Below, one piece after another: positions 1-58,848 of a DNA stretch of 64,000 nt (the stretch's first letter is position 1; the number at the start of each line of letters is the position of its first letter). The stretch comes from Chlamydiales bacterium (GTDB lineage Bacteria > Chlamydiota > Chlamydiia > Chlamydiales > SM23-39), in assembly GCA_028278035.1 (NCBI GenBank), contig JANQFC010000077.1:73323-137322 (forward strand), given 5' to 3'. Under the pieces are notes generated by a model, which ran no database searches, was not told where the DNA came from, and worked only from the letters and a program-made list of their open reading frames with translations. Made by a program: the position numbers and the translations under genes.

Positions 1-2159
1 GTTTGAAATTCTATTGAGTATTGGGTTTTTTGTGATATTTTATCCCAAAGTATTTTGAAATCAGCATTTAGTTCAATTCTTTTATTGTATCTAATTTTTT
101 GACGGTTACGAGCATCTTTAACAAATTCACGAGGCAGAAATTTTTTCATTCGATTAATAATAGCTTCATCCATATTTATAAAATTGTCCGGTAGATTTAA
201 AGAAAAACCTGGATGATCGGGTTTAAAATTTTGTGTAAAACTACCTTCTTTATCAATAAAACCTTGTTTTTGACAATGAACCCATAATTCTTTTGATTCT
301 TCTTGGGAAAGATAATTTGTTCCTGTTGCATTAAGAAGCTGGGTAAAAGCAATTTCTGAAAGACGTCCAAATTTAAATTTTCCACTTGGATCTATCGCTT
401 CTTCAATATCTTTTTGAAGCTCTTTTGCAAAATTCTCAAAAGATTCATCGGCAATTATTGTAAGTTTGTTGATTTGCTCATCATAAATACGTTCTCCTTG
501 TTGATTTACAGGCAAACGTAATCCTCTTCCAATTGTTTGTCGACGTTCTCTAATAGTTCCCATTTCTCGAAGTGAGCATATTTGGAATACATTTGGATTA
601 TCCCACCCTTCTTTTAGAGCTGAGTGGGAAAAAATAAAACGTAAAGGTTCATCAAGATTAAGAAGTCGTTCTTTATCCTTCATAATCAATTCATATGTTT
701 CTTCATCCCTAGCTGTTTTACCAGAAGTGTCCAATTCTTCAATAATTTTCCCTTTCTTTTTATCAGCTGAAAAATATCCTCCATGCACCTCATTTGCTGC
801 ATGAGGTATCACATCTTTATATGTTGTCATATTGCTAAGTTCATTGTAGATTTCTTCAAACCATATAGCCAGCTTTCCCTTTTGAGGGTTGCCATTTTCA
901 TCATATCCTCGATAACTTTTTACATGATCGATAAAAAAGAGAGAAAGCACTTTAATACCTTTCTCTTTGAACTTTTTTTCTTTAATGAAATGTTCTTTAA
1001 TTACTTGTCGTAACTGGCTTTTCATTCGATCATCTCTGATTCCATCAGTATCTTGTTCAAGCTTTAAAATAATACCATTTTGAAATTCAATATATTCATT
1101 ACCGGGTTCTGCATTAATATTAATTACTAAATATCCTTCATAATCAGATCTTTGTGTTTGTTGAGCTAGATCAGTTCCATGTTTAATTTTAATCTGTTTT
1201 TCTCGTGGACCATTTATGGAATTTTCAAAAATAGTTACCTTTGCTTGAGGACTTTTTGAGCTTTTAGGCCAATATCCAACAGCATCTAAGCTTATTAAGG
1301 TTTTATTAAAATCACGTGTATTGTTGGAATCAATCACTTCAAGTTGTTTTACAATTCGCATATCATAAGCTTTTATAGGATCTAGATAATATAACAGATT
1401 ATAAGGATTTATATGCGTAGCTGAATATCTCAAAGCAAAAAGCGGGTTTAAATCATTTATAGCTTTTTGTGATTTAGGAGTATTGTCTACACTCTGAGGT
1501 TCATCAATTATTACTATTGGTCTAGTTGTTTGAACATATTCGGCAGGAGTCCTTCCGGATAATTTATCTTGTTGTTGATGGAAAATATTAACTTCTTTTT
1601 GAAATGCTTGAATATTTATGATCATAATCTGAATTTCATTATTTCTTGCAAATTGCCGTACTTTATTAAGATCTTTAGATAAATATACAAAATCATCATA
1701 AGGAATATTGTCATAAAGATTTCTAAAATGTTCTTTCATCACCTTTAAAGAAGAAATAACCCCTTCTCGAATAGCTATTGAAGGGACAACAATGATAAAT
1801 TTTTTGAATCCATATATTTTATTAAGTTCAAAAATTGTACGCAAATAAACATATGTTTTTCCTGTGCCGGTTTCCATTTCGATTGAAAAATTAGGAAAGG
1901 AGTAGAAAGAGTCATATTCAATTAATGATTGTGATTTAGGTATGTTATTTTTGATTTGAATCGAATGGAGATTTTTTAGTACTTGTTCATCAGGAAGAGT
2001 GTGGTTATTTCCTATACCTAATTCATTTATAAAATGGTCTTTTATTTGGCTAAATTCTATCTTGAAATCATCCTGATGAGGCAATCCTTCAAATAAATCA
2101 GTTGTGCTTTTTATAGCTCCAAGCTGATATTCAAGATTTGAATCAAATTTTAGTTTCAT
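1..2159 (-). CDS. res: Type III restriction enzyme Res subunit (helicase-nuclease), partial; the 3' end lies beyond the window edge
   Basis: It is absent from the ORF track because its stop lies left of position 1. I translated the minus strand from ATG 2159-2157, and the frame stays open to position 1 (about 719 codons). Motifs are METGTGKTYVY (helicase I), IIDEPQS (II), SHSALKEGWDNPNVF and QTIGRGLRLP (VI). The ATG lies 4 nt after the mod stop. Confidence 0.85.
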   Translation of the reverse strand, partial: MKLKFDSNLEYQLGAIKSTTDLFEGLPHQDDFKIEFSQIKDHFINELGIGNNHTLPDEQVLKNLHSIQIKNNIPKSQSLIEYDSFYSFPNFSIEMETGTGKTYVYLRTIFELNKIYGFKKFIIVVPSIAIREGVISSLKVMKEHFRNLYDNIPYDDFVYLSKDLNKVRQFARNNEIQIMIINIQAFQKEVNIFHQQQDKLSGRTPAEYVQTTRPIVIIDEPQSVDNTPKSQKAINDLNPLFALRYSATHINPYNLLYYLDPIKAYDMRIVKQLEVIDSNNTRDFNKTLISLDAVGYWPKSSKSPQAKVTIFENSINGPREKQIKIKHGTDLAQQTQRSDYEGYLVININAEPGNEYIEFQNGIILKLEQDTDGIRDDRMKSQLRQVIKEHFIKEKKFKEKGIKVLSLFFIDHVKSYRGYDENGNPQKGKLAIWFEEIYNELSNMTTYKDVIPHAANEVHGGYFSADKKKGKIIEELDTSGKTARDEETYELIMKDKERLLNLDEPLRFIFSHSALKEGWDNPNVFQICSLREMGTIRERRQTIGRGLRLPVNQQGERIYDEQINKLTIIADESFENFAKELQKDIEEAIDPSGKFKFGRLSEIAFTQLLNATGTNYLSQEESKELWVHCQKQGFIDKEGSFTQNFKPDHPGFSLNLPDNFINMDEAIINRMKKFLPREFVKDARNRQKIRYNKRIELNADFKILWDKISQKTQYSIEFQ

Positions 2160-2163
2160 GGTT

Positions 2164-4092
2164 TTATATAGTTTTGAATTCAATTTGGTTATGTTTTTCT
2201 CGACTCATGTTGTAATCTTTAATAGTTTGAACAATATTTATTTTAAATTGATCATCACTTCCAAAAGCAGAATCTAAACAAATAAATTGAATAGGCTCAG
2301 CTTTGATTACTTCATGAATTAATTCTTTTGTTATTTTCTTTGCCAAACATATAAGAAGATTTCCTTCTGCTATAGAGAATACAGAGGTGTTTGCTAAATG
2401 AATAGTTTCTATTTTTTCTGTTGGCGTAAAACCAGCTTTTATAAGAATTTCATATAATAAATCTTCTTGGGTAGCATCTAGATTAATGTGATCAATATAT
2501 AGATCGAGGTGTTCTGCAATTTTTTCTGAAGGAGTATCTGATGAAAGTTTTTGCCATTGTTTAAAGTTAGATTTATCGAGTTTAAGAACTTTGAAGCCTA
2601 GGTCTTGATTTGATTCAGTAAAATTAAGAGAATCTTCCTTTTCTTTATTAATTTTATTTATAACTCGACGAATACGTTCTTTTCCAATATCGGCTATTGT
2701 TTTATAACCTGCTTTGAAAGCTTCGCTATCTTCAGCACATGGTTCTGGAAGTTGGACTAAGATGAATTTATTGTTACTTCCATTTTTTTCATTAAGATCT
2801 AGAATTGCATGAGCAGTTGTTGCAGATCCACAAAAAAAGTCTAAAACAATATCATTTTTGGTTAAGGCTTGCTCAATAAATATTTTTATAAATGTTGAAG
2901 GCTTAGGAAATTTTAGAGTTTCATTGTTCATTAATTCTCTTAATTCCTTGGTTCCTTTTGAAGTATAATCCGTATTAATCATAGAGGAAAATCCAGTAAA
3001 AGAGTTTAATAATTCATTTAAGTATCTTTTAAATCTAGGCTTTGAATGAGGATTCTTAGGCCATAAAATTCTCTTTTCTTGAAGTAACTTTTCAAATTTA
3101 GATTTTTGAAATCTCCAACCGTTCTCAGGAGATGGCTCATAATTTAATCCTGTTTTTGGATTAGTTATTGTATAATGTAAGTTAGGCCTTTTATCCTTTG
3201 CTGCGACTCCATCCATGGGTGAACTCATCCAATCGCCTCTGGGATCATTATCAGGATTTATATATTTATCTTTATTAATTTCTTTACCTCTAATTCTAAC
3301 TCCTAATTTTTTCGAATAACAAAGTACATACTCATGATCATTAGACACTCCTGTTAAGGAACGACTGTCAACATTTTGACGACTATGCCAGATCATTTGG
3401 GACATAAAATTATCTTCTCCAAAAATCTCATCACATATCTTTCTTAAATTACTTACTTCATTATCATCAATTGAGATAAAAATAACCCCATCATCCTTTA
3501 GCAAATTCCTTGCTAAGTACAACCTTGGGTACATCATGTTTAACCATTTAGTATGAAAACGACCTTCATTAGCAGTATTAGTACTAAATTTCTTCCCATC
3601 TTCATCAGCTAAGCCGGCATATTTTAAATAAGTTTCAAGTGATTCACTAAAGTTGTCTGGATAGATAAATTCTTTTCCTGTATTGTATGGAGGATCTATA
3701 TAGATCATTTTTACTTTGCCATAATAACTTTTTTGTAAAAGCTTTAAAACTTCTAGATTTTCCCCTTCTATAAAAAGATTTGCAGTTGTGTCGAAATTAA
3801 CTGATTCTTCTTTACAAGGTTTAAGAGTAGCTGTGCTTGGAGTTTGTATTAATCTTAGAGATTCTTTTTTACCCGGCCAATCCATATTATAGCGTTCTCT
3901 TCGATTTTCAAAAGCTTCTGAAAAGACTCCTAGCTCGGCTTTTAGTTTTTCAAAATCAATACTTTCTACAAGCTCACCATCTTCATTTTTGGATTCTGTA
4001 AAAACTGAAGGAAAAAGAGATCTAAGTTGGTTCTTTTTTTCAACAGTAATATTAAGCGAAGTCCCATCTAATTTTTCGATAGTAGTTTCCAT
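2164..4092 (-). CDS. mod: Type III R-M Mod subunit, beta-class N6-adenine DNA methyltransferase
   Basis: 642 aa. Motif IV (IYIDPPYNTG) precedes motif I (DFFCGSATTAHA), with a variable region between them, which is the type III Mod order. SD AAGGAG lies upstream of the ATG. Confidence 0.85.
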   Translation of the reverse strand: METTIEKLDGTSLNITVEKKNQLRSLFPSVFTESKNEDGELVESIDFEKLKAELGVFSEAFENRRERYNMDWPGKKESLRLIQTPSTATLKPCKEESVNFDTTANLFIEGENLEVLKLLQKSYYGKVKMIYIDPPYNTGKEFIYPDNFSESLETYLKYAGLADEDGKKFSTNTANEGRFHTKWLNMMYPRLYLARNLLKDDGVIFISIDDNEVSNLRKICDEIFGEDNFMSQMIWHSRQNVDSRSLTGVSNDHEYVLCYSKKLGVRIRGKEINKDKYINPDNDPRGDWMSSPMDGVAAKDKRPNLHYTITNPKTGLNYEPSPENGWRFQKSKFEKLLQEKRILWPKNPHSKPRFKRYLNELLNSFTGFSSMINTDYTSKGTKELRELMNNETLKFPKPSTFIKIFIEQALTKNDIVLDFFCGSATTAHAILDLNEKNGSNNKFILVQLPEPCAEDSEAFKAGYKTIADIGKERIRRVINKINKEKEDSLNFTESNQDLGFKVLKLDKSNFKQWQKLSSDTPSEKIAEHLDLYIDHINLDATQEDLLYEILIKAGFTPTEKIETIHLANTSVFSIAEGNLLICLAKKITKELIHEVIKAEPIQFICLDSAFGSDDQFKINIVQTIKDYNMSREKHNQIEFKTI

Positions 4093-4117
4093 CTTTTTTT
4101 CTCCTTGGAAGTTAATG

Positions 4118-7048
4118 TTAAATTATTTTCCATTTAATTGTAAAAAGAGTTTCCTTTTCTATCTTTTGTTTCAACTGCTTTTCAACATTTTCTAATAATT
4201 TATCTTTTTGTTTTTCTATGTTTTTTGTTGCTTCATCGTATTCTTTCCACGCAATATTATATTTTGTTTCTAAATCTCGGATCTGTTTTTGTATTTTTAA
4301 TTTTTCAGGTAAGTTAATTCCTGAACGAGCCTCTTTTTTTAATGCTTTTATTTGATGATCAAGTTCTTTTAATAAAGTCTTTTGACTTTGTTTTTTATCT
4401 CCTGCCCAATTGTCAAGTTTATTCATTTCATCATCGAAAAACTTTCCGTTTTTTTCTTCGATTTTAGAAAGAAGAGTTGATACATAATTTTGTTCTAGTA
4501 GCACAAGTTTCTGGTGATATTCTTCGGTTGCTTCCCATGGTGAAATAAATGTTGAGGGAAGTTGAAATATTTTTTTTATAATTTCCTGATCAATAGGGTT
4601 CTCATTTTCATCTATTGCTGAAAAAATAATCGCATCCTGTATTTCAAAAGCATCTACTGTATACATTGATACTTTTAATGTACCTTTCATTCCAACTAAT
4701 GAAGCTAGAACAGAAATAATTCCCTCACTATTAGAATAATCAAAGACAATTTCAGCGTCAGGACATTTGTGTAATTTGCTTTCAGAGATAATTTTTTGGG
4801 CTAAAGGATGACTGGGACGATATATATGAGCATCTTCAATATTTTTACCTATTTTGTAAGGGCCTGGATCTATCTGTTCATTCGAGAATGGATTGTTTTT
4901 CAGAGTGAATGAATATAAGTTATCTGAGAAATCAGCATTATCTTTCAAATAATATTGAGTAATTTTCCATAGCCAATTTTCATAGGTGTTTAAAAACAAA
5001 CGGCTATTTTTTTCATTAAATTTTAATTTTTCATGAACTTCGGTATCAAAATTTTCTAATAGTTTTTGGCGTGTATCGGATAAATTATTTTTAATCTTTT
5101 CATCCATCTCTTTTTGTAGCTCATCGAATGCTTTATTGATTTCTTCAGTTGTACGGCATGTATCATAAATTGAAGCAATTCTCTTTTCAAAGTCTACGCC
5201 CGATTCAATTGAGCCTAGAATTTCATCGCTAGCTCCAAAAACGCCTTTAAATAAGTTAAACTTTTGATCTAATAATTCATAAATTCGCTGATCTGCAGCA
5301 TTTTTACGATTTACAAAGTTTATTACCACTACATCATGTTTTTGTCCATAACGATGGCAGCGCCCAATTCTTTGCTCTATTCTTTGTGGATTCCAAGGTA
5401 AATCATAATTTACTAGTAAAGAGCAAAACTGCAAATTTACACCTTCAGCTGCAGCTTCCGTTGCAATCATAATTTCGGCGTAATTTTTGAAATAATCTAC
5501 TAAAGCAGCTCTTGTATCTGCTGTTTTGGAGCCTGTAATTTTGTCGGTGTTTTGATTTTTTTTAAGCCATTCATTATAAATTTGTTTTGTAGTTTGATTA
5601 TTATTCGAACCATTGAATAGTAAGGTTTTATCTTTGTAACCATGCTCAGCAAGTAGTTCTAAAAGATACTTTTGTGTAATTGTAGATTCTGTAAATATAA
5701 TAGCTTTTTTATTGGCTCCAAGTTCTTGAGCCATTTCAAAACCCTTTTTAAGAGCTATTATTAAAGCTTCTCCTTTAGAATTTTTCCAAATACTTTTTGC
5801 TAGATTACAAAGTTTTTCAAGATCATTTTTTTCTTTTTTAATTAGTTCTATATCTTCTTTAGAATAAATTATTTCCTCATTTATATCATTTTCATTTTCT
5901 TCATTATTCCATTCTTCTTTTAAATCAGATAGATTTTCATAGTCTTGTTCTAGATTTTCCAATCCCAAATCTCTCATATTTCTTTGTCGCTCATCTTTTA
6001 CGAGAATGTTTTGGAGTTTATTTGATAAATTGCTAAGAGTATTTGCAATAGCAAAAGATGAAGAAGCTAATAGTTTACGTAAAACAAGAGATATTAGTTG
6101 CCGTTGACTTGCAGGCAAGGCAAAAAGTTTATCTCGACGTAGATATTCAGACATTCCATTATATAGGTCTATCTCTTGCTCAGAAGGTGTATAGTCTTCT
6201 GTTAAAGCTAATCTTTTTGTAAATTTTATATATTCTAAAACTTGACGTCTTAAAGTGCGGGAACATAAGGATTTTAATCTATTTTTTAAATTTGAAAATA
6301 ATTGATTTTTAGGGTTGTTTTCATCAGTAGAATAATCGTTAACATCTTGTTCTAATGATACGCGAGAATAATTTGATTTAAAGCTTGTTAAATCACCAAA
6401 TACGTGTTCATCAATAATATTAACAAGGCCAAATAGTTCAAGTAATGAATTTTGAAGAGGTGTTGCGGTCAATAATACTTTTGAAACGTCTAGTAAAGCA
6501 TCTTTTATTTCTTTAGCTATTTTATTTCCAGATTTATATATATTTCGAAGGTGATGAGCTTCATCGATAATAGCTACATCCCATTTTGTTTGTTTAATAT
6601 ATGCAGCTTTTGTTTTTGCAAAATTATAAGAACAAATAATTACGGCTTCGTTCTGATCAAATGGATTTAAATTTCCATTTTTTATAGCTTCATTAAATGA
6701 TTTTGTCTCTAAAATTATAGAAGGAAGAAAAAATTTTTCTTGTAATTCATCGTTCCATTGTTTACGCAAACTTGCGGGTACTATAAGTAATATTTTTCTT
6801 TTTCTTTCTGCCCATTTTTGCGATAGAATTAATCCGGCTTCTATAGTTTTTCCTAGCCCGACCTCATCCGCTAATATTACTCCTTTCGAAAGAGGAGAGC
6901 GAAAGGCAAAAAGAGCAGCTTCAATTTGATGAGGATTTAGATCAACCTGAGCATTAGAAAGGGTTGCGGATAATTTTTCCAAATTATCTGAAGCGCATCT
7001 CTTGGTAAGCTCATAAGCAAAATATTTAGCATGATAATCAGAAGTCAT
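4118..7048 (-). CDS. SNF2-family DEAH helicase/translocase with a long uncharacterised C-terminal region
   Basis: 976 aa. Motifs are LADEVGLGKTIEAG (I), IIDEAHHLRN (II), LLLTATPLQNS (III) and NYDLPWNPQRIEQRIGRCHRYGQ (V-VI). It is the first gene of the SNF2-mod-res operon, with 25 nt before mod. Confidence 0.85.
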   Translation of the reverse strand: MTSDYHAKYFAYELTKRCASDNLEKLSATLSNAQVDLNPHQIEAALFAFRSPLSKGVILADEVGLGKTIEAGLILSQKWAERKRKILLIVPASLRKQWNDELQEKFFLPSIILETKSFNEAIKNGNLNPFDQNEAVIICSYNFAKTKAAYIKQTKWDVAIIDEAHHLRNIYKSGNKIAKEIKDALLDVSKVLLTATPLQNSLLELFGLVNIIDEHVFGDLTSFKSNYSRVSLEQDVNDYSTDENNPKNQLFSNLKNRLKSLCSRTLRRQVLEYIKFTKRLALTEDYTPSEQEIDLYNGMSEYLRRDKLFALPASQRQLISLVLRKLLASSSFAIANTLSNLSNKLQNILVKDERQRNMRDLGLENLEQDYENLSDLKEEWNNEENENDINEEIIYSKEDIELIKKEKNDLEKLCNLAKSIWKNSKGEALIIALKKGFEMAQELGANKKAIIFTESTITQKYLLELLAEHGYKDKTLLFNGSNNNQTTKQIYNEWLKKNQNTDKITGSKTADTRAALVDYFKNYAEIMIATEAAAEGVNLQFCSLLVNYDLPWNPQRIEQRIGRCHRYGQKHDVVVINFVNRKNAADQRIYELLDQKFNLFKGVFGASDEILGSIESGVDFEKRIASIYDTCRTTEEINKAFDELQKEMDEKIKNNLSDTRQKLLENFDTEVHEKLKFNEKNSRLFLNTYENWLWKITQYYLKDNADFSDNLYSFTLKNNPFSNEQIDPGPYKIGKNIEDAHIYRPSHPLAQKIISESKLHKCPDAEIVFDYSNSEGIISVLASLVGMKGTLKVSMYTVDAFEIQDAIIFSAIDENENPIDQEIIKKIFQLPSTFISPWEATEEYHQKLVLLEQNYVSTLLSKIEEKNGKFFDDEMNKLDNWAGDKKQSQKTLLKELDHQIKALKKEARSGINLPEKLKIQKQIRDLETKYNIAWKEYDEATKNIEKQKDKLLENVEKQLKQKIEKETLFTIKWKII

Positions 7049-7231
7049 TATAATCCCTTAAAAATTTTTTAATGAGTAATTATTTCATTCAACGAATAAT
7101 ATTATATCAGAATTAATTTGCAATTAAAACTAAACTAATTATTTACTATTAATTTATATGAATATTAATTTTAATAATTAATTAAATCCTTTTTTTGTTA
7201 AAATAGTTTCATATTAGAAAAGGAGAATACT

Positions 7232-8011
7232 GTGGCTAAAACAAAAATATTATTTAATTCTAATTCCTCCGAACCTATGCCTCTGAGCAGGTCAAAAATA
7301 GATCTTTTCCTTCAATGCCCTAAATGCTTTTATTTAGATAGAAAGTTAGGGATATCTCAACCTTCCGGAGCTCCTTTTACACTAAATAATGCTGTTGATG
7401 CATTATTAAAAAAAGAATTTGATATTTATAGACAAAACAAATCTTTACACCCTTTTCAAATTAAAAATAATATTGATGCTATTCCTTTTGATCACCCTGA
7501 AATTGAAATATGGAGAAATCAGAAAAAAGGCGGAGTAAGTTATTTGCATGAACAAACAAATTTTTTAATATATGGTGCAATAGATGATGTCTGGATCCAA
7601 CCAAATGGAGAGCTTATAATTGTCGATTATAAAGCAAAAGCCTCCAAAGACGATCCAAGTACTTTTTTAAAACCTAAGACTAAAAAAGACGGCGAAATAA
7701 TTAAAACTGAGAAATATAAAATTAGTTATAAAAAACAATTAGAAATTTATCAGTGGAGCTTTAGAAAAAAAGGTTTCAAAGTTTCCAATACAGCCTATTT
7801 TATTTTTGCTAATGCTAAAAAAGATGAAGATTCATTTAATGATCAATTAATTTTTGAAAAAAGTCTTATTCCCTATGAAGGTAATGATGATTGGGTTGAA
7901 TCGACAATTATGGCAATTCATGAGTGTTTATCACAGGATACTCTGCCTGCCGCTGCTCATGATTGTGATTATTGCAATTATCGAAACAAAATTCATGACC
8001 TGGAGAAATAG
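7232..8011 (+). CDS. Cas4-like PD-(D/E)XK nuclease with a putative 4-Cys Fe-S cluster
   Basis: 259 aa with a GTG start behind SD AAGGAG. Nuclease motifs are GAIDDVW, IIVDYKAK and QLEIYQW. Cysteines sit at CPKC (N-terminus) and CDYC (C-terminus). It is transcribed divergently from the SNF2 gene. Confidence 0.65.
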   Translation: MAKTKILFNSNSSEPMPLSRSKIDLFLQCPKCFYLDRKLGISQPSGAPFTLNNAVDALLKKEFDIYRQNKSLHPFQIKNNIDAIPFDHPEIEIWRNQKKGGVSYLHEQTNFLIYGAIDDVWIQPNGELIIVDYKAKASKDDPSTFLKPKTKKDGEIIKTEKYKISYKKQLEIYQWSFRKKGFKVSNTAYFIFANAKKDEDSFNDQLIFEKSLIPYEGNDDWVESTIMAIHECLSQDTLPAAAHDCDYCNYRNKIHDLEK

Positions 8012-8576
8012 TAGCTAATTTTTCTCGAAAATCAACTTCAGGAAACTTAACAAGCTTAAAACACTTCAATCTTGAGTAAAATCTATCACCAAATTTATTA
8101 CGAAGATCCCTAATAGAACAATTAGTCGAAACCACAGTGAGCCTGTTCTGAGTGTATCTTACATTGAAAATTTCCAAATATTGGCGTTGAACTCTGTCAC
8201 TTGAACTTTCTACACCAAGATCATCTAAAATAAAAAGAGTACTTTCAGAACACATTTTGATAATGCTATCGGCATCACGATCACTCTTTCCCATAGAAGC
8301 ACTTAAGAGTTGATAATCTAATTGAGCACTTATTTTAAAAATAATGAAAGGATAAGGTTGTAATTGCCCCCAAAACTCTCTTAATAGTGCAATTGAAAAG
8401 AATGTCTTCCCACACCCAGGTCTTCCTTGCAGGATTAAGGAGGTTTTATTTCTGCTTGTAAGCCATTCTTTCCCCCATGTAACCAAAGTTGGGTCTAATA
8501 AACATCTATTATCAAAGGAGGCATTGCAATTATCTTTCCCAATTCCTACTTGATTGATAAACTCCTCATATTTCAT
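7908..8576 (-). CDS. DnaC/IstB-like AAA+ ATPase (helicase-loader type)
   Basis: Walker A is GRPGCGKTF, Walker B is LFILDDLG, and there are STNCS and FYSRL elements. I prefer ATG 8576, with SD AAGGA 9 nt upstream, over the track's TTG 8597. The C-terminal ~35 aa run antisense through the end of the Cas4-like gene. Confidence 0.75.
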   Translation of the reverse strand: MKYEEFINQVGIGKDNCNASFDNRCLLDPTLVTWGKEWLTSRNKTSLILQGRPGCGKTFFSIALLREFWGQLQPYPFIIFKISAQLDYQLLSASMGKSDRDADSIIKMCSESTLFILDDLGVESSSDRVQRQYLEIFNVRYTQNRLTVVSTNCSIRDLRNKFGDRFYSRLKCFKLVKFPEVDFREKLATISPGHEFCFDNCNNHNHEQRQAEYPVINTHELP

Positions 8577-8580
8577 AAAA

Positions 8581-9078
8581 CTAATCCTTAATTGCAAAAT
8601 TTATAATGTTTGCTATAGGAAAATCCAAATCCTCACACAATTTTGTATTTTCTTTTGTTCTTAAAGATCTTAAATCTTTATTGTGGGTTTTCATTGGGTT
8701 GCCTTTTGGGTTTTGTTGGGGATTTTGCTGGTTAATAGATTCTGAAAATTGAACTATTATCCATCTGAAAATGGTAAATCTGTTGGGGGTTTTGTTGGGG
8801 CTCTTTTTAAGCAAACTTGCTTTTTCAAAGTGTTTTACTCTAGTTCGTATCTCATCTTCTGTTAAACCTGTTTCAATAGCACACTGACATCTACCAAAGA
8901 TAAAACTAAATGGACGCAGCATTATCTTCTGATTATCATGAATAACAACTCTCTCATCTCGGTAGCATCGACCAAAAGACCAAACAACAAATGCTGTTGT
9001 TTTAGGATCTTGAAACCATCCAGCTAAGCGAAAATATTTTGGTATCGGATCAAAGAAAAAAGGGATTTCTGAACTCAT
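8581..9078 (-). CDS. Replication-initiator-like winged-helix protein (phage/plasmid DnaD/O-like N-terminus)
   Basis: 165 aa. It has the pattern of a wHTH replication protein (GRCQCAIETGLTEDEIRTRVKHFEKASLL) and sits directly upstream of the DnaC-like gene. The assignment rests on context and pattern only. Confidence 0.45.
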   Translation of the reverse strand: MSSEIPFFFDPIPKYFRLAGWFQDPKTTAFVVWSFGRCYRDERVVIHDNQKIMLRPFSFIFGRCQCAIETGLTEDEIRTRVKHFEKASLLKKSPNKTPNRFTIFRWIIVQFSESINQQNPQQNPKGNPMKTHNKDLRSLRTKENTKLCEDLDFPIANIINFAIKD

Positions 9079-9539: not shown

Positions 9540-10577
9540 ATGACAAAAAAAAATTTTAACCTAAAAAATGAAAAATCAATATCAAATACAGAACCAGCTA
9601 AGGATGTTTTAGATCTTTATCAAGATCATATAACATCTTTTTATGATTCCCTTCTTGTTCAAGAAACATTGAGAAGAAAAGAAAAGAATCTTCCATTCTC
9701 TCAGGCAGAATCAGAAAAATTTTTGAAAGAGATCCAAAAAGCTCTAAAAGGTAAATTAGAAAAATCAAATTCATTTTTAAATAGACAAAATCAAGATAGT
9801 TTTAAAAACCCATTAATTGATAAGGCAAAGAATGAAGGAAAGCTTTCTACTATCAATTTAATGAAAAAAACTTCAATTGAAGATGCCATCTCTGAATGGT
9901 TACTTTCCCTATCCTCCAATACCCTGAAGGGTTATGAAAGAGGTATAAGAGCTCTGATAAGTGAAGGTTACATCCGTTTAGCTGAAAAACAAGACACACT
10001 TAATGCACATCCTCGCACTTTAATCGATTTCTCCAATGTCCCTCACGACTTAATTCTTGAAAAAATTTTCTCCCATGTAACTTGGAGTCCATCAATCAAG
10101 ACGAGAAATGCAACATCTTACAAGAACTTCATCAAGTTCCTGGAGACCAAAACTGAAGGCATTATTACATTTCTTAGAATCAAACCGATGTTCCCTAAAA
10201 ATAAAGAGCCTTCTCCTATCAAAGATTTATCCGCTGATCAAATTAAACAAATTTTGTCTCTTCTTAAAGATGAGAATCTTAGAGATTACTGCCTTGTTTA
10301 CTTATACATATCTTCAGACTTGAAATTATGTGATACTATTAATCTCAGAAAAAAAGATCTAGATCTGAAGAAAAATCAATATGTATGCAGTCTTATACCT
10401 GATTTTCAAAACCTCAGTGATAATGATTATATATTCCGCACAAGGAATGGAAAACCCATTGATCCTATGCAAATTTCTAGAACACTGCAGAGGATTTTTA
10501 AAAAGGTTGGTATATCCGCGGTACCCTTGAAAGATCTAAAAAAATCAGCCGATTTCATAGGAATAGCTTTGAGATAA
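9540..10577 (+). CDS. Tyrosine-recombinase-like protein, catalytically degenerate and C-terminally truncated
   Basis: 345 aa with a SAM-like N-domain (NTLKGYERGIRAL). The box I position reads SSDLKLCD instead of TGLRxSE. The HxLRH position reads KDLKK. The protein stops 11 aa later, before any Tyr nucleophile. Confidence 0.55.
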   Translation: MTKKNFNLKNEKSISNTEPAKDVLDLYQDHITSFYDSLLVQETLRRKEKNLPFSQAESEKFLKEIQKALKGKLEKSNSFLNRQNQDSFKNPLIDKAKNEGKLSTINLMKKTSIEDAISEWLLSLSSNTLKGYERGIRALISEGYIRLAEKQDTLNAHPRTLIDFSNVPHDLILEKIFSHVTWSPSIKTRNATSYKNFIKFLETKTEGIITFLRIKPMFPKNKEPSPIKDLSADQIKQILSLLKDENLRDYCLVYLYISSDLKLCDTINLRKKDLDLKKNQYVCSLIPDFQNLSDNDYIFRTRNGKPIDPMQISRTLQRIFKKVGISAVPLKDLKKSADFIGIALR

Positions 10578-10607
10578 AAAGCCCGTAAGGGTTATTATAT
10601 ACATGGT

Positions 10608-11141
10608 TTGAAAACATCACCATTAAATAAAAGGCCTTTAATGACAACACGTCCTACCATTTCACCAAAGTTAATAGAGCAAGTCAAAATCGAATCAGGA
10701 CATCGATGTGCTATTCCTACATGTTTAAAATTTCCAATTGATGTTCATCACATCATTCCTTACTCAGAGTGTTTAGAACATTCTTTTGATAATTTAATAA
10801 CTCTTTGTACTGAATGTCATGCTAGACATCATCGAACAAAAGAAATTAGTTTAAAAGCGTTACAAACATATAAAAATAATCTAGGATTATTAAATCACCG
10901 ATATGGAGACTTTGAACGAAGATTATTATATTTTTTCTATTTAGAAAAAAAGAAAACAATATTTTTGTCTGTTGGTTTTGAACCTTCAATATTCTTTTTC
11001 CTCCAAGATAATATTATAAAAAAAACTGGGAGAAATAGCGGAGTAAAAACAAGCGGCATATATACATTGGAAGAATACATGTTGACTTCAGATGGAGAGA
11101 AACTGATGGAAAATTTTATGAACGGCCAATTAATTAAATAG
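10608..11141 (+). CDS. HNH endonuclease with an uncharacterised C-terminal domain
   Basis: Motifs are HRCAIPTC...DVHHIIP...NLITLCTECHARHH. An alternative ATG start lies at 10641. Confidence 0.8.
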   Translation: MKTSPLNKRPLMTTRPTISPKLIEQVKIESGHRCAIPTCLKFPIDVHHIIPYSECLEHSFDNLITLCTECHARHHRTKEISLKALQTYKNNLGLLNHRYGDFERRLLYFFYLEKKKTIFLSVGFEPSIFFFLQDNIIKKTGRNSGVKTSGIYTLEEYMLTSDGEKLMENFMNGQLIK

Positions 11142-11218
11142 CCTATATTTAAAGCTCTTACTATCCCTCTTCTCTTGGATATATAACATGGGTAAAGTCC
11201 AAACTTTATAGAGCAGTA

Positions 11219-12166
11219 TTACAAGGAATTACTATCAATAAATTCTACTTTCTCTGAATCTAATCGAAGAATAGCCTTAACTCTATCAATTTTATCTTTT
11301 TTATCCTTTTCAGGATTTTCCTTTTTTATCCGATTAATAATACTAATCTTTTCCCATTTCTTATTTTGGCTTGCGAAAGCAATAGTATTCATTAATTCAT
11401 GGTCATAAATATTGAATGCTAATCCACAAATATATAAATAATCTGCCTGTCTTAACCATTCTTCTGCAAGGATATGATAAGCGAATAATTTATCATAATT
11501 ATTCTTTGATCCATCAAATCTTTCGTAAACTAATTTTAGGACTTCATCTTTGAGATCTTTTTTAACCGAATCAACTAAAGGTTCAATACTTTCTGAAAAC
11601 ACAGAACATTGATAATTTAATTCATTTATAGTTTCAGTTGGAAAAATCATGAGTTGAGGCTCTGTGCACCTTCCATGAAGATAAGCTAAATTTTTAATCT
11701 GTTTATCTCCATTTAGAGTATTATCCCAATTAGTAGTGATTATGGCTGAATCGTAACTATATAATCCTTCACTTTCAAGAAAATCATGACAGCTTTTTCT
11801 CCATTTTATCGCATAATTATCGTTATAACTTTTTCCCATAATTTTTCTGAATGACATTGCCTTGCTTAAATGATGAAGAAGAACAATAATTAGATCTTCT
11901 CCATCAGGCATTTTGGGAGGAATCCATTTTCCTTTAGAAACTAATGCTATTCGTGCAAACCACTCTCTTTCTTCAGCGGCCAAACAACTTAAAGCATGCA
12001 TGGGACCTAATTTAGTTGCATCTGGTAAAAAATAATTACTATTATAATCTTCAGAAAATTTCAGTGCTTGTTCAAGAGGTTCACTTCCATTCTCAATACA
12101 TCCATTTCCAATTAAAAAAACTCTTTTTTTAGCAATATCCTTATTATTTCTCATATTAAACTCCAT
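11219..12166 (-). CDS. Stand-alone SIR2-like (SIR2_2-type) domain protein
   Basis: Landmarks are VFLIGNGCI, IITTNWDNTL, AYLHGRC and YICGLAFNIYDHEL. ATG 12154 is preceded by GGAG and may be the real start. Confidence 0.6.
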   Translation of the reverse strand: MEFNMRNNKDIAKKRVFLIGNGCIENGSEPLEQALKFSEDYNSNYFLPDATKLGPMHALSCLAAEEREWFARIALVSKGKWIPPKMPDGEDLIIVLLHHLSKAMSFRKIMGKSYNDNYAIKWRKSCHDFLESEGLYSYDSAIITTNWDNTLNGDKQIKNLAYLHGRCTEPQLMIFPTETINELNYQCSVFSESIEPLVDSVKKDLKDEVLKLVYERFDGSKNNYDKLFAYHILAEEWLRQADYLYICGLAFNIYDHELMNTIAFASQNKKWEKISIINRIKKENPEKDKKDKIDRVKAILRLDSEKVEFIDSNSL

Positions 12167-12274
12167 TATTAATTTTATTTTTTTTAATAAAGCTCTTCAA
12201 GCAAATTTTTGAAGGTTAATTCTAGCAGCTAAGCTTATATTAATATAATTATCTATACATTTTCATATATCACA

Positions 12275-13349
12275 TCAAACAAAATAATATTCCTTACCAA
12301 ACATCTTCTCATTCATCCTTTCAACAACAAAGCGTGTATGCTCCTCTGTCAAATGAGCATACCTTTTTACCATAACAAGAGTTTTATGGCCCATAGCTTC
12401 TGCTATCTCAGCTAATGTTGCACCATTCATGGCTAAGTAACTGGCAAAGGTATGGCGAAGATCATGGAAGTGAAAGTCAGAAAGATTTGCAAGTTTGGCT
12501 GCTGATTCCCAAGAAGAGCGGATTTGGATAGATTTTGAACCAAAAGTGCTAGGGAAAACAAAAGGACTTAATATCTGACATGACCTATTAGCATATTCCT
12601 TTAGAATATTAAGAGCATGACCTGTAATAGAAACTGTTCTTCTCTCACCATTTTTTGTTTCATGTAAAATTGCTTTGCCCTTTTCCAAATCAATATCCTT
12701 CCATTTAAGATTGAGGATTTCACCTCTTCGCATACCTGTAGCTAATGCAAGAACTACAATTGTATAGAGACAAGGACTTTTACTTGTAAGACAAGCTTGT
12801 AGGAGTCTTTCCTTTTCATCAGGACTAAGAAAACGAATTCTACCTCTTGGCTCTTTGCGTTTTCGTACTTTAGGGACAGGGAGACTCCTTAATCATACCC
12901 CAATCCTCACAAGCAGCCTGAAAAACACATGACAAGGAGCTTCTATAACGATTGAGGGTTGCAGGCGATGCAACTTTTCCACGATAGTTTATTTGTTCGG
13001 ACAATAATTGCAGCTTTTGGGAAATCATAAATGAAGAGATCTTGCCAATAGCAAAACGTCCAAGCTGCTGCTTCCACCATGTAAGCTGTCCAACAAAGGT
13101 TTGGTAATTGCGGGATTCTTTATTTAGAAACTCATTGATATATCTATCGATTACTTCTGATAATGTACATTGTAACGCTTCTGAATTATCAAAATAGGTG
13201 CCCTCCTGCATTGCAGCTTTTGTTTGTATCTCCCACTTCTCTGCCTCTTTTCTGGTTCGAAAGGTTTTCGCTTTTGTGGGATAACCCTTGTTCTTTACGA
13301 TTGCTTGGTAGCGTGGTTTTCCATTTTTATCTTTTCTAGAACGTATCAT
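12275..13349 (-). pseudogene. int: Phage-type tyrosine integrase split by a 1-nt frameshift
   Basis: The N-terminal ORF (13349-12870) ends ...IKESPCP*. The catalytic ORF's frame is open from about 12895 and reads PKVRKRKEPRGRIRFLSPDEKERLL...TGMRRGEILNL...HDLRHTFAS...GHKTLVMVKRYAH. All catalytic boxes are present, but they lie in a frame shifted by 1 nt. Confidence 0.8.
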
Positions 13350-13483: not shown

Positions 13484-13579
13484 AACGCAAAATTACATAT
13501 AAACACAAAACAGCAACACTGCTGTTAGAACTTTACATTTTATTGCTGAGAAGTATGTTTGGACTATAAAAAAGAATTT

Positions 13580-13664
13580 CGGAAGAGGAGGGATTCGAAC
13601 CCCCGGTCCCTTGCGGGACTTCTGTTTTCAAGACAGACGCAATCGGCCACTCTGCCACTCTTCC
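13580..13664 (-). tRNA. tRNA-Ser (anticodon UGA), no encoded CCA
   Basis: I folded it by hand. The acceptor is GGAAGAG/CTCTTCC, the anticodon stem is TCTGT/ACAGA and the loop is CTTGAAA. It has a long variable arm (GTCCCGCAAGGGACC) and T-loop TTCGAAT. Confidence 0.9.
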
Positions 13665-13704
13665 GTAAAAAAGATATTAATATAATAGAAAAAATCTTAA
13701 CAAT

Positions 13705-16274: not shown

Positions 16275-16850
16275 ATGAAAAATAAATATAGATTTTCACC
16301 ACACTTAAAAATAGCTCACAGCTATTGGCAAACATTTTTACAAAGAAATGATGTTGTCATAGACGCTACCTGCGGCAATGGTCAAGACACCTTATTTTTA
16401 GCATCTTTACTTCAATTAAAAAAAATTTATGGGTTTGATATTCAAGCCCAAGCTATTGAAAATACTCAAAAATTACTCAAGAAAAATTTAAATAAAGATA
16501 TTTTGAAAAACATTTTTTTATTTAATGTTTCTCACATAGATTTTTCAAAATATATTAAAGAAAAAGCAAATTTAATTATTTATAACCTCGGTTATTTACC
16601 CAGTGGAAATAAAGCTATAACAACCATGACTGATATAACTATAAAAAGTATTCAATCTGCTTTTTCAATACTAAACAAAAAAGGAGCAATCTGTATTACC
16701 TGCTATCCAGGTCATTTAGAAGGATTAAAAGAAAAAAACGCCATTTTAAATTTTTTAAAAACTTTAGATAATAAAACTTATAATATTTGTCATCATCAGT
16801 GGATAAATAAACAATCTGCACCATCAGTTATTTGGATCTATAAATATTAA
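16275..16850 (+). CDS. YtqB/MnmM-family class I SAM-dependent methyltransferase
   Basis: Motifs are VIDATCGNGQDTLFLA, GFDIQ, YNLGYLPSGNK and CYPGHLEG. Confidence 0.7.
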   Translation: MKNKYRFSPHLKIAHSYWQTFLQRNDVVIDATCGNGQDTLFLASLLQLKKIYGFDIQAQAIENTQKLLKKNLNKDILKNIFLFNVSHIDFSKYIKEKANLIIYNLGYLPSGNKAITTMTDITIKSIQSAFSILNKKGAICITCYPGHLEGLKEKNAILNFLKTLDNKTYNICHHQWINKQSAPSVIWIYKY

Positions 16851-52055: not shown

Positions 52056-52478
52056 TTACAACAATAATAGTGCAAATACCAAAGCAAATAAAGCAAATGA
52101 TTCTATAATACCTAATGCCGCTGCACATTTACCAAAAATAGCAGGCTGTTTTGCCGACGCCTGAATAGCAGTAGCTGCTGTTTTGCCCTGATAAATAGCA
52201 CTGATCATAATTGCAAGTCCTGCAAATAGCGCAATACCTACAGCACTCATAGGAGAAGTTTTACCTTGAACAATAGAATTTTTCATAATTATCATTAAAA
52301 CAAATGCATAAATTGACTGAGAAGACGGCATAGCAGATAGACCGATAAATTTTCCGTGCCCTTCATCAACATGCGTCATCACACCATGTGAAGCCATTCC
52401 TGCAACACCGCAGCCTATTGCACTTCCTAAACAACCAAGCCCCAATACAATTCCGGGCCCAAACATTGAAAAATCCAT
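52056..52478 (-). CDS. atpK: V-type ATPase subunit K (proteolipid)
   Basis: 140 aa, Gly/Ala-rich TM hairpins, operon position. Confidence 0.85.
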   Translation of the reverse strand: MDFSMFGPGIVLGLGCLGSAIGCGVAGMASHGVMTHVDEGHGKFIGLSAMPSSQSIYAFVLMIIMKNSIVQGKTSPMSAVGIALFAGLAIMISAIYQGKTAATAIQASAKQPAIFGKCAAALGIIESFALFALVFALLLL

Positions 52479-52494
52479 ATTTACCTCTTTTTTT

Positions 52495-54399: not shown

Positions 54400-55001
54400 A
54401 CAGCCTTCTCAAGTATTTTAAGTTTTGCTACTTTTGCCTGCGAAATTGCCGCCAGCTCCTGATCTGATAAAAATACTTTAATTTTTTTTATGTTATTTAA
54501 TGTTTTAGGAATCAATACCTTTTCAAAAAGATTTACTCTGATCGACACATCCTTAAGTTCTTTTTCCAAAGATCTTTTCTTTTCTTCTTCAATATTTGTT
54601 TTTTCTTTAAGCCTTATTAATTTCCTTAATTTCTCTATCATGGAATCAAACCATATCGGAGTATCAAATAAAGAATAGTTCAAATCGTTAAAAATAATTC
54701 TTTCGAATTTTGCAAGCTCTACTCCTGCTATGTTTTCATATGTTTTTTCAATATGCTGAACTTTGGTAAATAAAGTAGGATCCATTCCGTATTTAGATGT
54801 TAGAAGATAAGCATAATGCAGAATTTCCTGTCTTTTTTCAGAAAAATCTTTTTCTAATTTTTCTATTTTTGTTTTTGTATTATTTACCTCTACCTGCAAA
54901 AGTGTTTTTTTAAGCTGCAGTGTCGGTAAATACGTCTGCAGCTGTTTTAAAATATGCTGCTGGGAGCGAAGCCCATTCTTTGTCATTTTAAAATCAGCCA
55001 T
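54396..55001 (-). CDS. atpD: V-type ATPase subunit D
   Basis: 201 aa, coiled coil, positioned between atpB and atpI. Confidence 0.85.
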
Positions 55002-58070: not shown

Positions 58071-58078
58071 TTTTTTCC

Positions 58079-58843: not shown

Positions 58844-58848
58844 AAAAT

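What the first reader, a model, noticed from the sequence alone, without database searches (positions are those of the whole stretch)
1..8011. SNF2 helicase fused into a type III R-M operon, with a divergent Cas4-like nuclease: a candidate four-gene defence locus
Three minus-strand genes are packed as one operon: SNF2 (7048 to 4118), a 25-nt gap, Mod (4092 to 2164), a 4-nt gap, then Res (2159 to beyond position 1). Textbook type III systems consist of Mod plus Res only, and Res already contains its own helicase-type motor (GTGKT / DEPQ / QTIGRGLR seen here). A dedicated SNF2 translocase as the first gene is therefore an unexplained extra component. An SNF2 plus adenine-methylase pairing recalls class 1 DISARM (DrmD plus DrmMI). 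However, no DrmA, DUF1998 or PLD gene is visible, and a COG3587-type Res takes their place. A Cas4-like Fe-S nuclease is transcribed divergently from the same 183-nt AT-rich control region. I cannot tell from sequence alone whether this arrangement is already catalogued.
Basis: partly seen in the sequence, partly recalled or inferred. Interest (0 to 1): 0.72.

Follow-up and report, generated by a model that had tools for sequence, protein, structure and literature searches.

The report
SNF2 helicase-assisted type III restriction system
A classical two-gene type III restriction-modification system here carries a third, highly conserved SNF2 motor gene; the same three-gene cassette recurs in more than 15 bacterial phyla, including E. 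coli, Salmonella and Klebsiella, yet I found no paper that describes it as a system.

Summary
SNF2 (7048-4118), Mod (4092-2164) and Res (2159 to beyond position 1) form a tight minus-strand operon. A PD-(D/E)XK, Cas4-like gene (7232-8011) diverges from it.

The SNF2-Mod-Res linkage is real and general. Among relatives of the SNF2 with at least 7 kb of downstream sequence, 56 of 58 loci carry Mod and Res downstream on the same strand. These span more than 15 phyla and three unrelated Mod/Res subtypes. The reverse does not hold: most plasmid homologues of this Res lack this SNF2. The SNF2 is therefore an accessory that depends on type III R-M.

It is closest to DISARM DrmD but scores below the family cut-off, and no DrmA, DrmB or DrmC is present. 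Its C-terminal coiled-coil arm co-varies with the Mod/Res subtype, which suggests a docking arm.

The Cas4-like gene is not a core part. It neighbours 8 of 84 SNF2 loci, and 0 of 38 loci found through the Cas4-like protein carry SNF2, Mod or Res.

The cassette is cargo of a 16.5-kb island integrated at tRNA-Ser, in what is probably a chlamydia-like coral symbiont.

Verdict: an apparently undescribed variant of type III R-M; the mechanism is inferred.

The parts
1..2159 (-). Res, the type III restriction subunit. These are the N-terminal 719 codons; the gene runs off the window start. The full protein is 978 aa in contig L007.
   Evidence: Pfam ResIII; PADLOC REase_III PDLC03647 at 730 bits. 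Full length with RE_endonuc in L007. Walker A G98-T102, DEPQ 219-222, motif VI 541-548 and PD(916-917)...E934-x-K936 are invariant in 17 relatives.
2164..4092 (-). Mod, a type III N6-adenine DNA methyltransferase (642 aa). The DPPY motif precedes the FxGxG-type AdoMet motif.
   Evidence: Pfam N6_N4_Mtase 2.8e-35; PADLOC MTase_III PDLC03634 at 697 bits, covering 3-615 of 621 profile positions.
4118..7048 (-). SNF2-family ATPase (976 aa). It is the first gene of the operon and is DrmD-like.
   Evidence: SNF2-rel_dom plus Helicase_C. PADLOC DrmD PDLC02619 at 695 bits. NCBIfam DISARM_DrmD_b at 690 bits, below the cut-off of 950, covering profile positions 22-701 of 868. GLGKT, DEAH and QRIGRCHRYGQ are invariant in 15 homologues from several phyla. 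RapA is the closest solved structure.
5009..6967 (-). SNF2 motor core (residues 28-680). It includes a poorly conserved acidic insert between the lobes (residues 341-425).
4529..5008 (-). SNF2 C-terminal alpha/beta domain (residues 681-840). It is specific to this family and its fold is unassigned.
   Evidence: AlphaFold model of residues 640-976, pLDDT 87.5. No Foldseek match in PDB or BFVD. Always C-terminal in 704 clusters at E<=1e-10.
4121..4528 (-). SNF2 C-terminal antiparallel coiled-coil hairpin plus terminal beta-strand (residues 841-976). This is the candidate docking arm.
   Evidence: Model helices 203-270 and 274-320. Identity co-varies with Mod/Res subtype: 41.5% against 32.7% at equal core divergence, reached by 0 of 2000 label permutations. 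The neighbouring domain and the insert show no such effect.
7049..7231 (.). A+T-rich divergent intergenic region of 183 nt. It holds no small HTH gene, unlike some relatives.
   Evidence: The promoter scan found no more sites than shuffled sequence.
7232..8011 (+). PD-(D/E)XK nuclease of the RecB/Cas4-like kind (259 aa). It is an occasional neighbour, not a core component.
   Evidence: PDDEXK_1 at 46.6 bits; the Cas4 models score below their cut-offs. D118, D132-x-K134, Q169...Y173 and four Cys (C29, C32, C245, C248) are conserved in 38 homologues. Present in 8 of 84 SNF2 loci. 0 of 38 reverse loci carry SNF2, Mod or Res.
7908..9078 (-). Island replication module: a DnaC-like helicase loader (7908-8597) and a DnaD-like protein (8581-9078). 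The DnaC-like gene overlaps the Cas4-like 3' end by 104 nt.
   Evidence: PHROG DnaC-like 8e-24 and DnaD-like 1e-4; NCBIfam.
9540..13349 (.). Other island genes: an integrase-like gene (9540-10577, +), an HNH gene (10608-11141, +), an unknown gene (11219-12166, -), and a tyrosine integrase split into two ORFs (12275-12733 and 12870-13349, -).
13579..13665 (-). tRNA-Ser(TGA), the island attachment site. At least 30 nt of its 3' part recur at the far end of the island, outside the window.
   Evidence: The end of L007 repeats 'cttgaaaacagaagtcccgcaagggaccgg', and L007 starts inside the tRNA.

Best explanation
This is a three-gene, SNF2-assisted type III restriction-modification system. It is carried as cargo on a 16.5-kb island integrated at tRNA-Ser. 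Mod marks host DNA by adenine methylation of an asymmetric site. Mod-Res complexes bind unmethylated sites on incoming DNA and cut it after ATP-triggered long-range communication, as in EcoP15I. The extra first gene encodes an active DrmD-like SNF2 double-strand-DNA translocase with no nuclease of its own. I infer that it is tethered to the Mod/Res complex through its protruding C-terminal coiled-coil arm, which matches the Mod/Res subtype. I further infer that it spends ATP to move along DNA or strip proteins from it. That would let the otherwise passive sliding step of type III enzymes, and hence cleavage, still work on protein-covered or otherwise protected invader DNA. Shown here: gene content, intact motifs, near-universal synteny, one-sided dependence, tail co-variation and mobile-element carriage. 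Inferred: the physical contact and the roadblock-clearing or driving role (about 0.35 on its own). The Cas4-like nuclease is an optional neighbour and is not required.
For: Tight operon and domain identities. SNF2 ATPase motifs are invariant across phyla, with 64-73% identity across Patescibacteria, Omnitrophota, Brocadiia, Bacteroidota and Syntrophales. Of 58 relatives' loci with at least 7 kb downstream, 56 have Mod and Res downstream on the same strand; the other two are a decayed Mod and a flank that ends at Mod. The same SNF2 family is joined to three unrelated cognate Mod/Res subtypes. The link also survives insertion of unrelated defence genes between SNF2 and Mod. The dependence is one-sided. 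The Res family occurs in 266 plasmids. Only about 45 plasmids carry this SNF2 at full length, and only 4 of the 60 best Res hits are among them. Res keeps its own motor and nuclease motifs, so SNF2 adds a function rather than replacing one. Only the coiled-coil arm co-varies with the Mod/Res subtype. By analogy, SNF2 partners are needed for defence in ARMADA II (PMC13463889) and ietHAS (PMC13069673), and they contribute to defence in class 1 DISARM (bioRxiv 10.1101/2021.12.28.474362).
Against: There is no experiment on any member. Tail co-variation could reflect recombination breakpoints, because the tail coding region abuts mod; the sequences are also phylogenetically related, so the permutation count is not a probability. 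SNF2-linked Mod and Res show no extra domain that would obviously receive the arm. The alpha/beta C-terminal domain has no structural match. The gene order, with SNF2 always directly before the methylase or before inserts, fits a methylation-side role equally well. My literature search covers open-access papers and bioRxiv only.
Confidence: 0.55

Rival explanations
1. SNF2 serves the methylase rather than the nuclease. Like DDM1/LSH for eukaryotic DNA methyltransferases, it would open nucleoid-protein-covered host DNA so that Mod can keep every site marked. This would prevent self-restriction.
For: SNF2 lies upstream of the methylase in this cassette. SNF2 plus methylase is the module shared by class 1 DISARM (DrmD-DrmMI) and ARMADA (ArmA-ArmB), and the YprA paper likens both to BREX BrxHII and PglX (PMC12458937, PMC13463889). 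DDM1 and LSH are among the solved structures matched by sequence. Type III systems methylate only one strand, so maintenance is delicate (established knowledge).
Against: Most relatives of the same Mod/Res subtype manage without this SNF2. In ARMADA II the SNF2 is required for defence itself (PMC13463889). There are no methylome data here.
Confidence: 0.25
2. This is a four-gene system in which the Cas4-like nuclease is an obligatory partner. It might, for example, degrade the ends made by Res.
For: A homologue (46-53% identical) lies within 0-1 genes downstream of Res, on the same strand, in 7 other SNF2 loci from at least 4 different backbones. A Cronobacter integrative element is reported to carry a PD-(D/E)XK nuclease, Res, Mod and an SNF2 helicase (PMC12757443).
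Against: It is absent from about 87% of complete cassettes. 0 of 38 loci found through the nuclease carry SNF2, Mod or Res. Its position and orientation differ in this window. Here it adjoins DnaD/DnaC-like replication genes. The one plasmid homologue sits in a phage-like gene array.
Confidence: 0.08
3. SNF2 is an independent gene that merely travels with type III R-M in defence islands.
For: Unrelated defence genes (RhuM, OLD plus DUF2130, LmuB-like, Abi, AbiP2, SIR2-HerA) do nest in these loci.
Against: Order and strand are kept in 56 of 58 loci across more than 15 phyla and three Mod/Res subtypes. SNF2 has no effector domain. It was never seen without type III genes where the flank sufficed. 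The tail co-varies with the partner subtype.
Confidence: 0.07
4. This is a decayed or minimal class 1 DISARM locus.
For: The best HMM hits of the SNF2 are DrmD models.
Against: It scores below the curated cut-off (690 against 950) and has a different C-terminus. The methylase is PF01555 Mod-type. No DrmA, DrmB or DrmC is in the island. The cassette is intact and conserved as it stands.
Confidence: 0.03

Closest known systems
Type III restriction-modification (EcoP15I, EcoP1I, LlaFI)
   Same: A Mod (beta-class N6-adenine methylase) lies directly upstream of a Res with SF2 motor motifs and a C-terminal PD-(D/E)XK nuclease. PADLOC type III models match both over nearly their full length.
   Different: The textbook system has two genes. 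Here a 976-aa SNF2 ATPase is a conserved third gene at the head of the operon.
Class 1 DISARM (DrmD, DrmMI, DrmA, DrmB, DrmC)
   Same: An SNF2 helicase gene lies directly before an adenine methylase. DrmD_b is the nearest named family (690 bits).
   Different: There is no DrmA, DUF1998 or PLD gene. The methylase is Mod-type (PF01555), not PF13659/PglX-like. The effector is a type III Res. The C-terminal 230 residues differ from DrmD_b.
ARMADA (ArmA SNF2, ArmB methylase, ArmC YprA helicase-nuclease, ArmD) and BREX BrxHII with PglX
   Same: A RapA-like SNF2 is paired with a methylase in a methylation-based defence system (PMC12458937, PMC13463889).
   Different: No YprA-type or BREX core genes are present. 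The methylase class and the effector differ.
CglI/NgoAVII-type ATP-dependent restriction enzymes with a separate H subunit
   Same: A restriction system recruits a separately encoded SF2 helicase-like motor for long-range movement (PMC5861437).
   Different: There the motor is a DEAD-Z1 protein and the nuclease has no motor of its own. Here Res keeps its own motor and the added one is SNF2.
ietHAS (ietAS plus a DrmD-like SNF2)
   Same: A DrmD-like SNF2 is acquired as an add-on by an existing defence system, and its ATPase motifs are needed for protection (PMC13069673).
   Different: The host system is a protease/ATPase pair, not an R-M system.
Firmicute cassette: helicase-related protein (1085 aa), DUF4391, Mod, Res
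   Same: A distant SNF2-like gene lies upstream of the same Mod/Res subtype on Bacillus cereus and Enterococcus plasmids.
   Different: It is a different helicase family (about 30% identity in the motor motifs only) and has an added DUF4391 gene. In B. cereus it is also preceded by DrmA and DUF1998.

Membership tests
Type III restriction-modification | Mod: N6-adenine methylase of the N6_N4_Mtase kind, with DPPY before the AdoMet motif | tested here: met
   (MTase_III at 697 bits, nearly full length).
Type III restriction-modification | Res: SF2 helicase motifs plus a PD-(D/E)XK endonuclease domain | tested here: met
   (motifs invariant in 17 relatives).
Type III restriction-modification | mod directly upstream of res in one operon | tested here: met
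   A 4-nt gap. Mod and Res subtypes are always cognate in the 62 loci that have both.
Type III restriction-modification | Two-component composition (Mod and Res only) | tested here: not met
   A conserved third gene (SNF2) is present in 56 of 58 loci.
Type III restriction-modification | ATP-dependent cleavage that needs two inversely oriented unmethylated sites; hemimethylation | not testable with these tools
   Needs biochemistry or a methylome.
Class 1 DISARM | Core DrmA helicase, DrmB (DUF1998) and DrmC (PLD) | tested here: not met
   None of these is among the island genes.
Class 1 DISARM | DrmD SNF2 helicase at equivalog level | tested here: not met
   NF038318 scores 690 bits against a cut-off of 950, and NF038317 scores 261 against 610. 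RefSeq (PGAP) annotation names the relatives only 'SNF2-related protein'.
Class 1 DISARM | DrmMI methylase of the PF13659/PglX-like kind | tested here: not met
   Only PF01555 matches.
ARMADA | YprA-like ArmC with DUF1998 and nuclease domains | tested here: not met
   Absent from the island.
MADS | MAD6 kinase, MAD7 and MAD8 (mandatory in the authors' model) | tested here: not met
   There is only a weak mad8 hit on the DnaC-like protein. A MAD1-like HTH heads the cassette in E. coli relatives but not here.
Cas4 (CRISPR-associated) | Score above the Cas4 family cut-off | tested here: not met
   TIGR00372 scores 21 bits against 65, and PF01930 scores 19.6 against 22.7.
Cas4 (CRISPR-associated) | Linkage to a CRISPR array or cas genes | tested here: not met
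   No repeat array in the 64-kb window and no cas genes in the island.
PD-(D/E)XK nuclease superfamily (RecB/Cas4-like branch) | D...D/ExK and QxxxY motifs plus cysteine ligands | tested here: met
   PDDEXK_1 at 46.6 bits against a cut-off of 22. Conserved D118, D132-x-K134, Q169/Y173 and four Cys arranged 2+2.

The most novel reading that the evidence does not exclude
SNF2-Mod-Res is a distinct, widespread and so far unnamed three-component class of type III restriction. A DrmD-like remodeller docks on Mod/Res through a subtype-matched coiled-coil arm and is required for full defence. It would then be the simplest setting in which to learn what the SNF2 partners of DISARM, BREX and ARMADA do. 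The Cas4-like nuclease and the MAD1-like HTH would be optional modules.
Probability: 0.45. Interest if true: 0.75.

Novelty: new variant of a known kind. Interest (0 to 1): 0.6.

Why it matters
Type III enzymes are among the best-understood ATP-dependent restriction systems. The role of the SNF2 helicases found in DISARM, BREX and ARMADA is still open.

This cassette joins such a helicase to a well-characterised two-subunit enzyme, so that role can be tested directly by genetics, methylome sequencing and single-molecule assays.

The cassette is common:
- The family-specific C-terminus defines about 700 clusters at 50% identity.
- It sits on mobile elements.
- It occurs on IncF plasmids of Klebsiella, E. 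coli and Salmonella and in 30 complete E. coli chromosomes.

It may therefore influence phage therapy outcomes and plasmid spread, and annotation pipelines currently leave the SNF2 gene unexplained.

Tried and rejected
- The full-length AlphaFold model from 15 close homologues was poor (pLDDT 50) and was not used.
I rebuilt it from database proteins, which gave a good C-terminal model.
- Foldseek of that model against PDB and BFVD gave only coiled-coil noise, so the alpha/beta domain stays unassigned.
- The promoter and terminator scan found no more sites than shuffled sequence in this A+T-rich DNA.
- Eight literature searches and several targeted readings found no description of an SNF2 plus type III system. 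The original DISARM paper is not held.
- The phage collection holds almost no relatives of the SNF2 and none of the Cas4-like protein.
- The 550-aa gene after Res has no hit in Pfam, PADLOC, PHROGs or PDB sequences.
- A PDDEXK gene between Mod and Res on a Chryseobacterium plasmid is unrelated to the Cas4-like protein.
- I rejected the DISARM, ARMADA, MADS and CRISPR-Cas4 labels; the reasons are in the membership tests.
Full report
**Observation**

The ORF list and translations confirm three close-packed minus-strand genes: SNF2 at 4118-7048 (976 aa), Mod at 2164-4092 (642 aa), and Res from 2159 running off the window start. The gaps between them are 25 nt and 4 nt. A plus-strand gene at 7232-8011 (259 aa) diverges from them across a 183-nt A+T-rich spacer.

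Pfam, PADLOC and NCBIfam agree on the identities:
- Mod is an N6_N4_Mtase and matches PADLOC MTase_III at 697 bits over nearly the whole profile.
- Res has a ResIII domain and matches REase_III at 730 bits.
- SNF2 has SNF2-rel_dom plus Helicase_C.
- The divergent gene is a PDDEXK_1 nuclease that stays below both Cas4 family cut-offs.

An identical 16.5-kb public contig (L007) supplies the rest of Res. The full protein is 978 aa and has a C-terminal RE_endonuc domain.

**What the SNF2 is**

Its best models are DISARM DrmD models: PADLOC PDLC02619 at 695 bits and NCBIfam DISARM_DrmD_b at 690 bits. The NCBIfam score is below the curated cut-off of 950. Only profile positions 22-701 of 868 align, so the last 230 or so residues differ. 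RefSeq (PGAP) annotation accordingly calls relatives just 'SNF2-related protein'. The closest solved structure by sequence is RapA.

Full-length homologues are very conserved. They are 64-73% identical in Patescibacteria, Omnitrophota, Brocadiia, Bacteroidota and Syntrophales, and the ATPase motifs are invariant.

**Conserved linkage**

Gene maps around three distant homologues already showed SNF2-Mod-Res in the same order. A scan of one genome per species returned 80 loci at 48-72% identity from more than 15 phyla. I mapped Mod, Res and all neighbours on them.

- Among loci with at least 7 kb downstream of SNF2, 56 of 58 carry both Mod and Res downstream on the same strand.
- The two exceptions are a locus with a decayed Mod and a locus whose flank ends at Mod.
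- The remaining 'missing' cases are contigs that end too soon.

The SNF2 family is joined to three unrelated but internally cognate Mod/Res subtypes:
- Subtype A, as in this window.
- Subtype B: Res of about 890 aa with a TnsA-like nuclease hit.
- Subtype C: Mod of about 1040 aa and Res of about 1100 aa.

Other self-contained defence genes are often wedged between SNF2 and Mod or after Res. These include RhuM, OLD/GajA-like plus DUF2130, LmuB-like, Abi, AbiP2 reverse transcriptase, SIR2-HerA and GmrSD-like genes. The link between SNF2 and Mod/Res survives these insertions.

The cassette also occurs in cultured bacteria:
- Salmonella IncFIB plasmids.
- IncF plasmids of Klebsiella, E. coli, Raoultella and Citrobacter.
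- Cupriavidus and Rhizobium plasmids.
- 30 of 5426 complete E. coli chromosomes.

**One-sided dependence**

Homologues of this Res occur in 266 plasmid records. Only about 45 plasmids hold this SNF2 at full length, and only 4 of the 60 best Res hits are among them. So this SNF2 appears essentially only with type III genes, while most relatives of this Res (the subtype I checked) do without it. That is the signature of an accessory module.

Res has not lost anything that SNF2 might replace. Walker A, DEPQ, motif VI and the PD...ExK nuclease motif are invariant in 17 relatives.

On Bacillus cereus and Enterococcus plasmids, the same Mod/Res subtype is instead preceded by a different, distantly SNF2-like 1085-aa helicase plus a DUF4391 gene. 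In B. cereus, DrmA and a DUF1998 protein lie further upstream. A helicase of this broad kind upstream of type III Mod-Res is therefore a recurring theme with at least two independent solutions.

**The C-terminus**

A model of residues 640-976, built on 116 diverse sequences, reached pLDDT 87.5. It shows:
- a long helix;
- an alpha/beta domain of about 130 residues;
- an antiparallel coiled-coil hairpin of about 65 residues per helix (roughly 100 Å if ideally helical);
- a final strand that, I infer, returns to the alpha/beta domain.

Neither PDB nor BFVD holds a convincing match. The region is family-specific. Hits that reach the protein end are always C-terminal, and there are 704 clusters at E<=1e-10.

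I compared SNF2 pairs of equal motor-core divergence (58-68% identity). The coiled-coil arm is 41.5% identical when the two loci share a Mod/Res subtype and 32.7% when they do not. The alpha/beta domain and the inter-lobe insert show no such difference. No label permutation out of 2000 reached the observed value.

The window's own SNF2 groups by motor core with subtype-B proteins, yet its arm is closer to those of distant subtype-A proteins. This points to the arm as the part adapted to the partner. The caveats are:
- the arm's coding region abuts mod, so linked recombination could produce the same pattern;
- the sequences are related, so the permutation count is not a probability.

**Mechanism (inferred)**

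Type III enzymes use a burst of ATP hydrolysis to switch into passive sliding along DNA. They cut when a sliding complex meets a site-bound one. This is established for EcoP15I (PMC3413136, PMC4490356). An attached true translocase could clear bound proteins or drive the complex, and so extend restriction to protected or protein-coated DNA.

The main rival is that SNF2 helps Mod reach host sites, as DDM1/LSH do for eukaryotic methyltransferases. This fits the recurrent SNF2-then-methylase gene pair of DISARM and ARMADA, which the YprA paper likens to BREX BrxHII and PglX (PMC12458937).

Published data on relatives favour a role in defence. ArmA is essential in ARMADA II (PMC13463889). The DrmD-like ietH needs its ATPase motifs (PMC13069673). 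Deleting drmD together with drmMI weakens class 1 DISARM (bioRxiv 10.1101/2021.12.28.474362).

**The Cas4-like gene**

It has the RecB/Cas4-type catalytic motifs and four conserved cysteines in a 2+2 arrangement. It is not a Cas4 by family score, and the window contains no CRISPR array.

Homologues (46-53% identical) sit 0-1 genes after Res in 7 other SNF2 loci, which represent at least four different backbones. This is more than chance but covers only about 13% of cassettes.

The search in the other direction found no link:
- None of 38 metagenomic loci found through this protein holds SNF2, Mod or Res, although many of those contigs are short.
- There is no hit in sequenced phages.
- The single plasmid hit lies in a phage-like gene array.

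In this window it converges on DnaC-like and DnaD-like loader genes. I treat it as an optional neighbour or an island gene, not a core part.

**Setting**

L007 starts inside tRNA-Ser (window 13579-13665) and ends with a second copy of the tRNA's 3' part. The cassette therefore lies in a 16.5-kb island integrated at tRNA-Ser. The island also holds a split tyrosine integrase, a second integrase-like gene, an HNH gene and the replication genes.

Outside the island are pheS, folC, valS, pyruvate kinase, a V-type ATPase operon and a PknD that is closest to the chlamydial equivalog. The sequence is found complete in one coral metagenome. The host is probably a chlamydia-like coral associate; this is an inference.

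**Known or new**

HMM libraries label the parts (type III Mod and Res; DrmD-like helicase). I found no defined system or paper for the triad in the library I could search. One paper lists a PD-(D/E)XK nuclease, Res, Mod and an SNF2 helicase together on a Cronobacter integrative element, without comment (PMC12757443).

I could not run PADLOC or DefenseFinder system calls, and subscription literature and REBASE were not searchable. I therefore rate this a new variant of a known kind, with moderate confidence that it is undescribed.

Noticed in passing
window 13579-13665 and L007 1-30 / 16510-16539: The public contig L007 begins inside tRNA-Ser and ends with a repeat of the tRNA's 3' part. It therefore equals the whole 16.5-kb island between its two attachment sites. 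The island's far end lies about 2.9 kb beyond the window start.
   Followed up: yes
window 12275-12733 and 12870-13349 (-): The integrase next to the tRNA is split into two ORFs (N-terminal and catalytic halves). This is possibly a frameshift, so the island may no longer excise. A second integrase-like gene lies at 9540-10577.
   Followed up: partly
window 13705-64000: The flanking genes include a PknD closest to the chlamydial equivalog (35510-38254) and a V-type ATPase operon (about 52056-59472). The sequence comes from a coral metagenome. This suggests a chlamydia-like host at about 30% G+C.
   Followed up: partly
L129 1-11970 (Bacillus cereus plasmid NZ_AP022875) and L130 1921-11168 (Enterococcus faecium plasmid): The same Mod/Res subtype is preceded by a different SNF2-like 1085-aa helicase plus a DUF4391 gene. 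In B. cereus, DrmA and a DUF1998 protein lie directly upstream, giving a DISARM/type III hybrid arrangement. I found no paper that links DUF4391 to defence.
   Followed up: partly
L010, L015, L018, L012, L062, L076, L080, L087, L133 (between SNF2 and Mod, or after Res): Unrelated defence genes are nested inside the cassette: RhuM/PDC-S05, OLD/GajA-like plus DUF2130, LmuB-like, Ppl-like, AbiP2 reverse transcriptase, SIR2-HerA, GmrSD-like and Abi. The loci therefore act as small defence islands.
   Followed up: partly
L088 6232-6432, L089 8760-9005, L090 8795-8995, L133 11814-12014: A small HTH gene overlaps the SNF2 start in at least 12 of 82 loci and is named MAD1 (a MADS component) in the RefSeq (PGAP) annotation of E. 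coli. It is absent from this window. It is possibly a controller protein.
   Followed up: partly
L007 14689-16341 (outside the window, after Res): A 550-aa gene lies between Res and the island end. It has no hit in Pfam, PADLOC, PHROGs or PDB sequences and no relative in the other loci.
   Followed up: partly
window 7908-8011: The Cas4-like gene and the convergent DnaC-like gene overlap by 104 nt at their 3' ends. This is unusually long for convergent genes.
   Followed up: no
proteins P0363, P0365, P0374, P0376, P0379: Some fragments that carry the SNF2 C-terminus are named 'adenine-specific DNA-methyltransferase' by JGI. These may be SNF2-Mod fusions or annotation carry-over.
   Followed up: no
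window 27989-33625 (+): A very large ORF (1878 aa) in the host part of the window was not examined.
   Followed up: no
phrog_62 and phrog_11801: The SNF2, including its C-terminal part, aligns with the helicase section of very large phage proteins (1881-2269 aa), one family of which is annotated as a DNA methyltransferase. This hints at kinship with the SNF2-methylase 'polyvalent' proteins of phages and conjugative elements.
   Followed up: no
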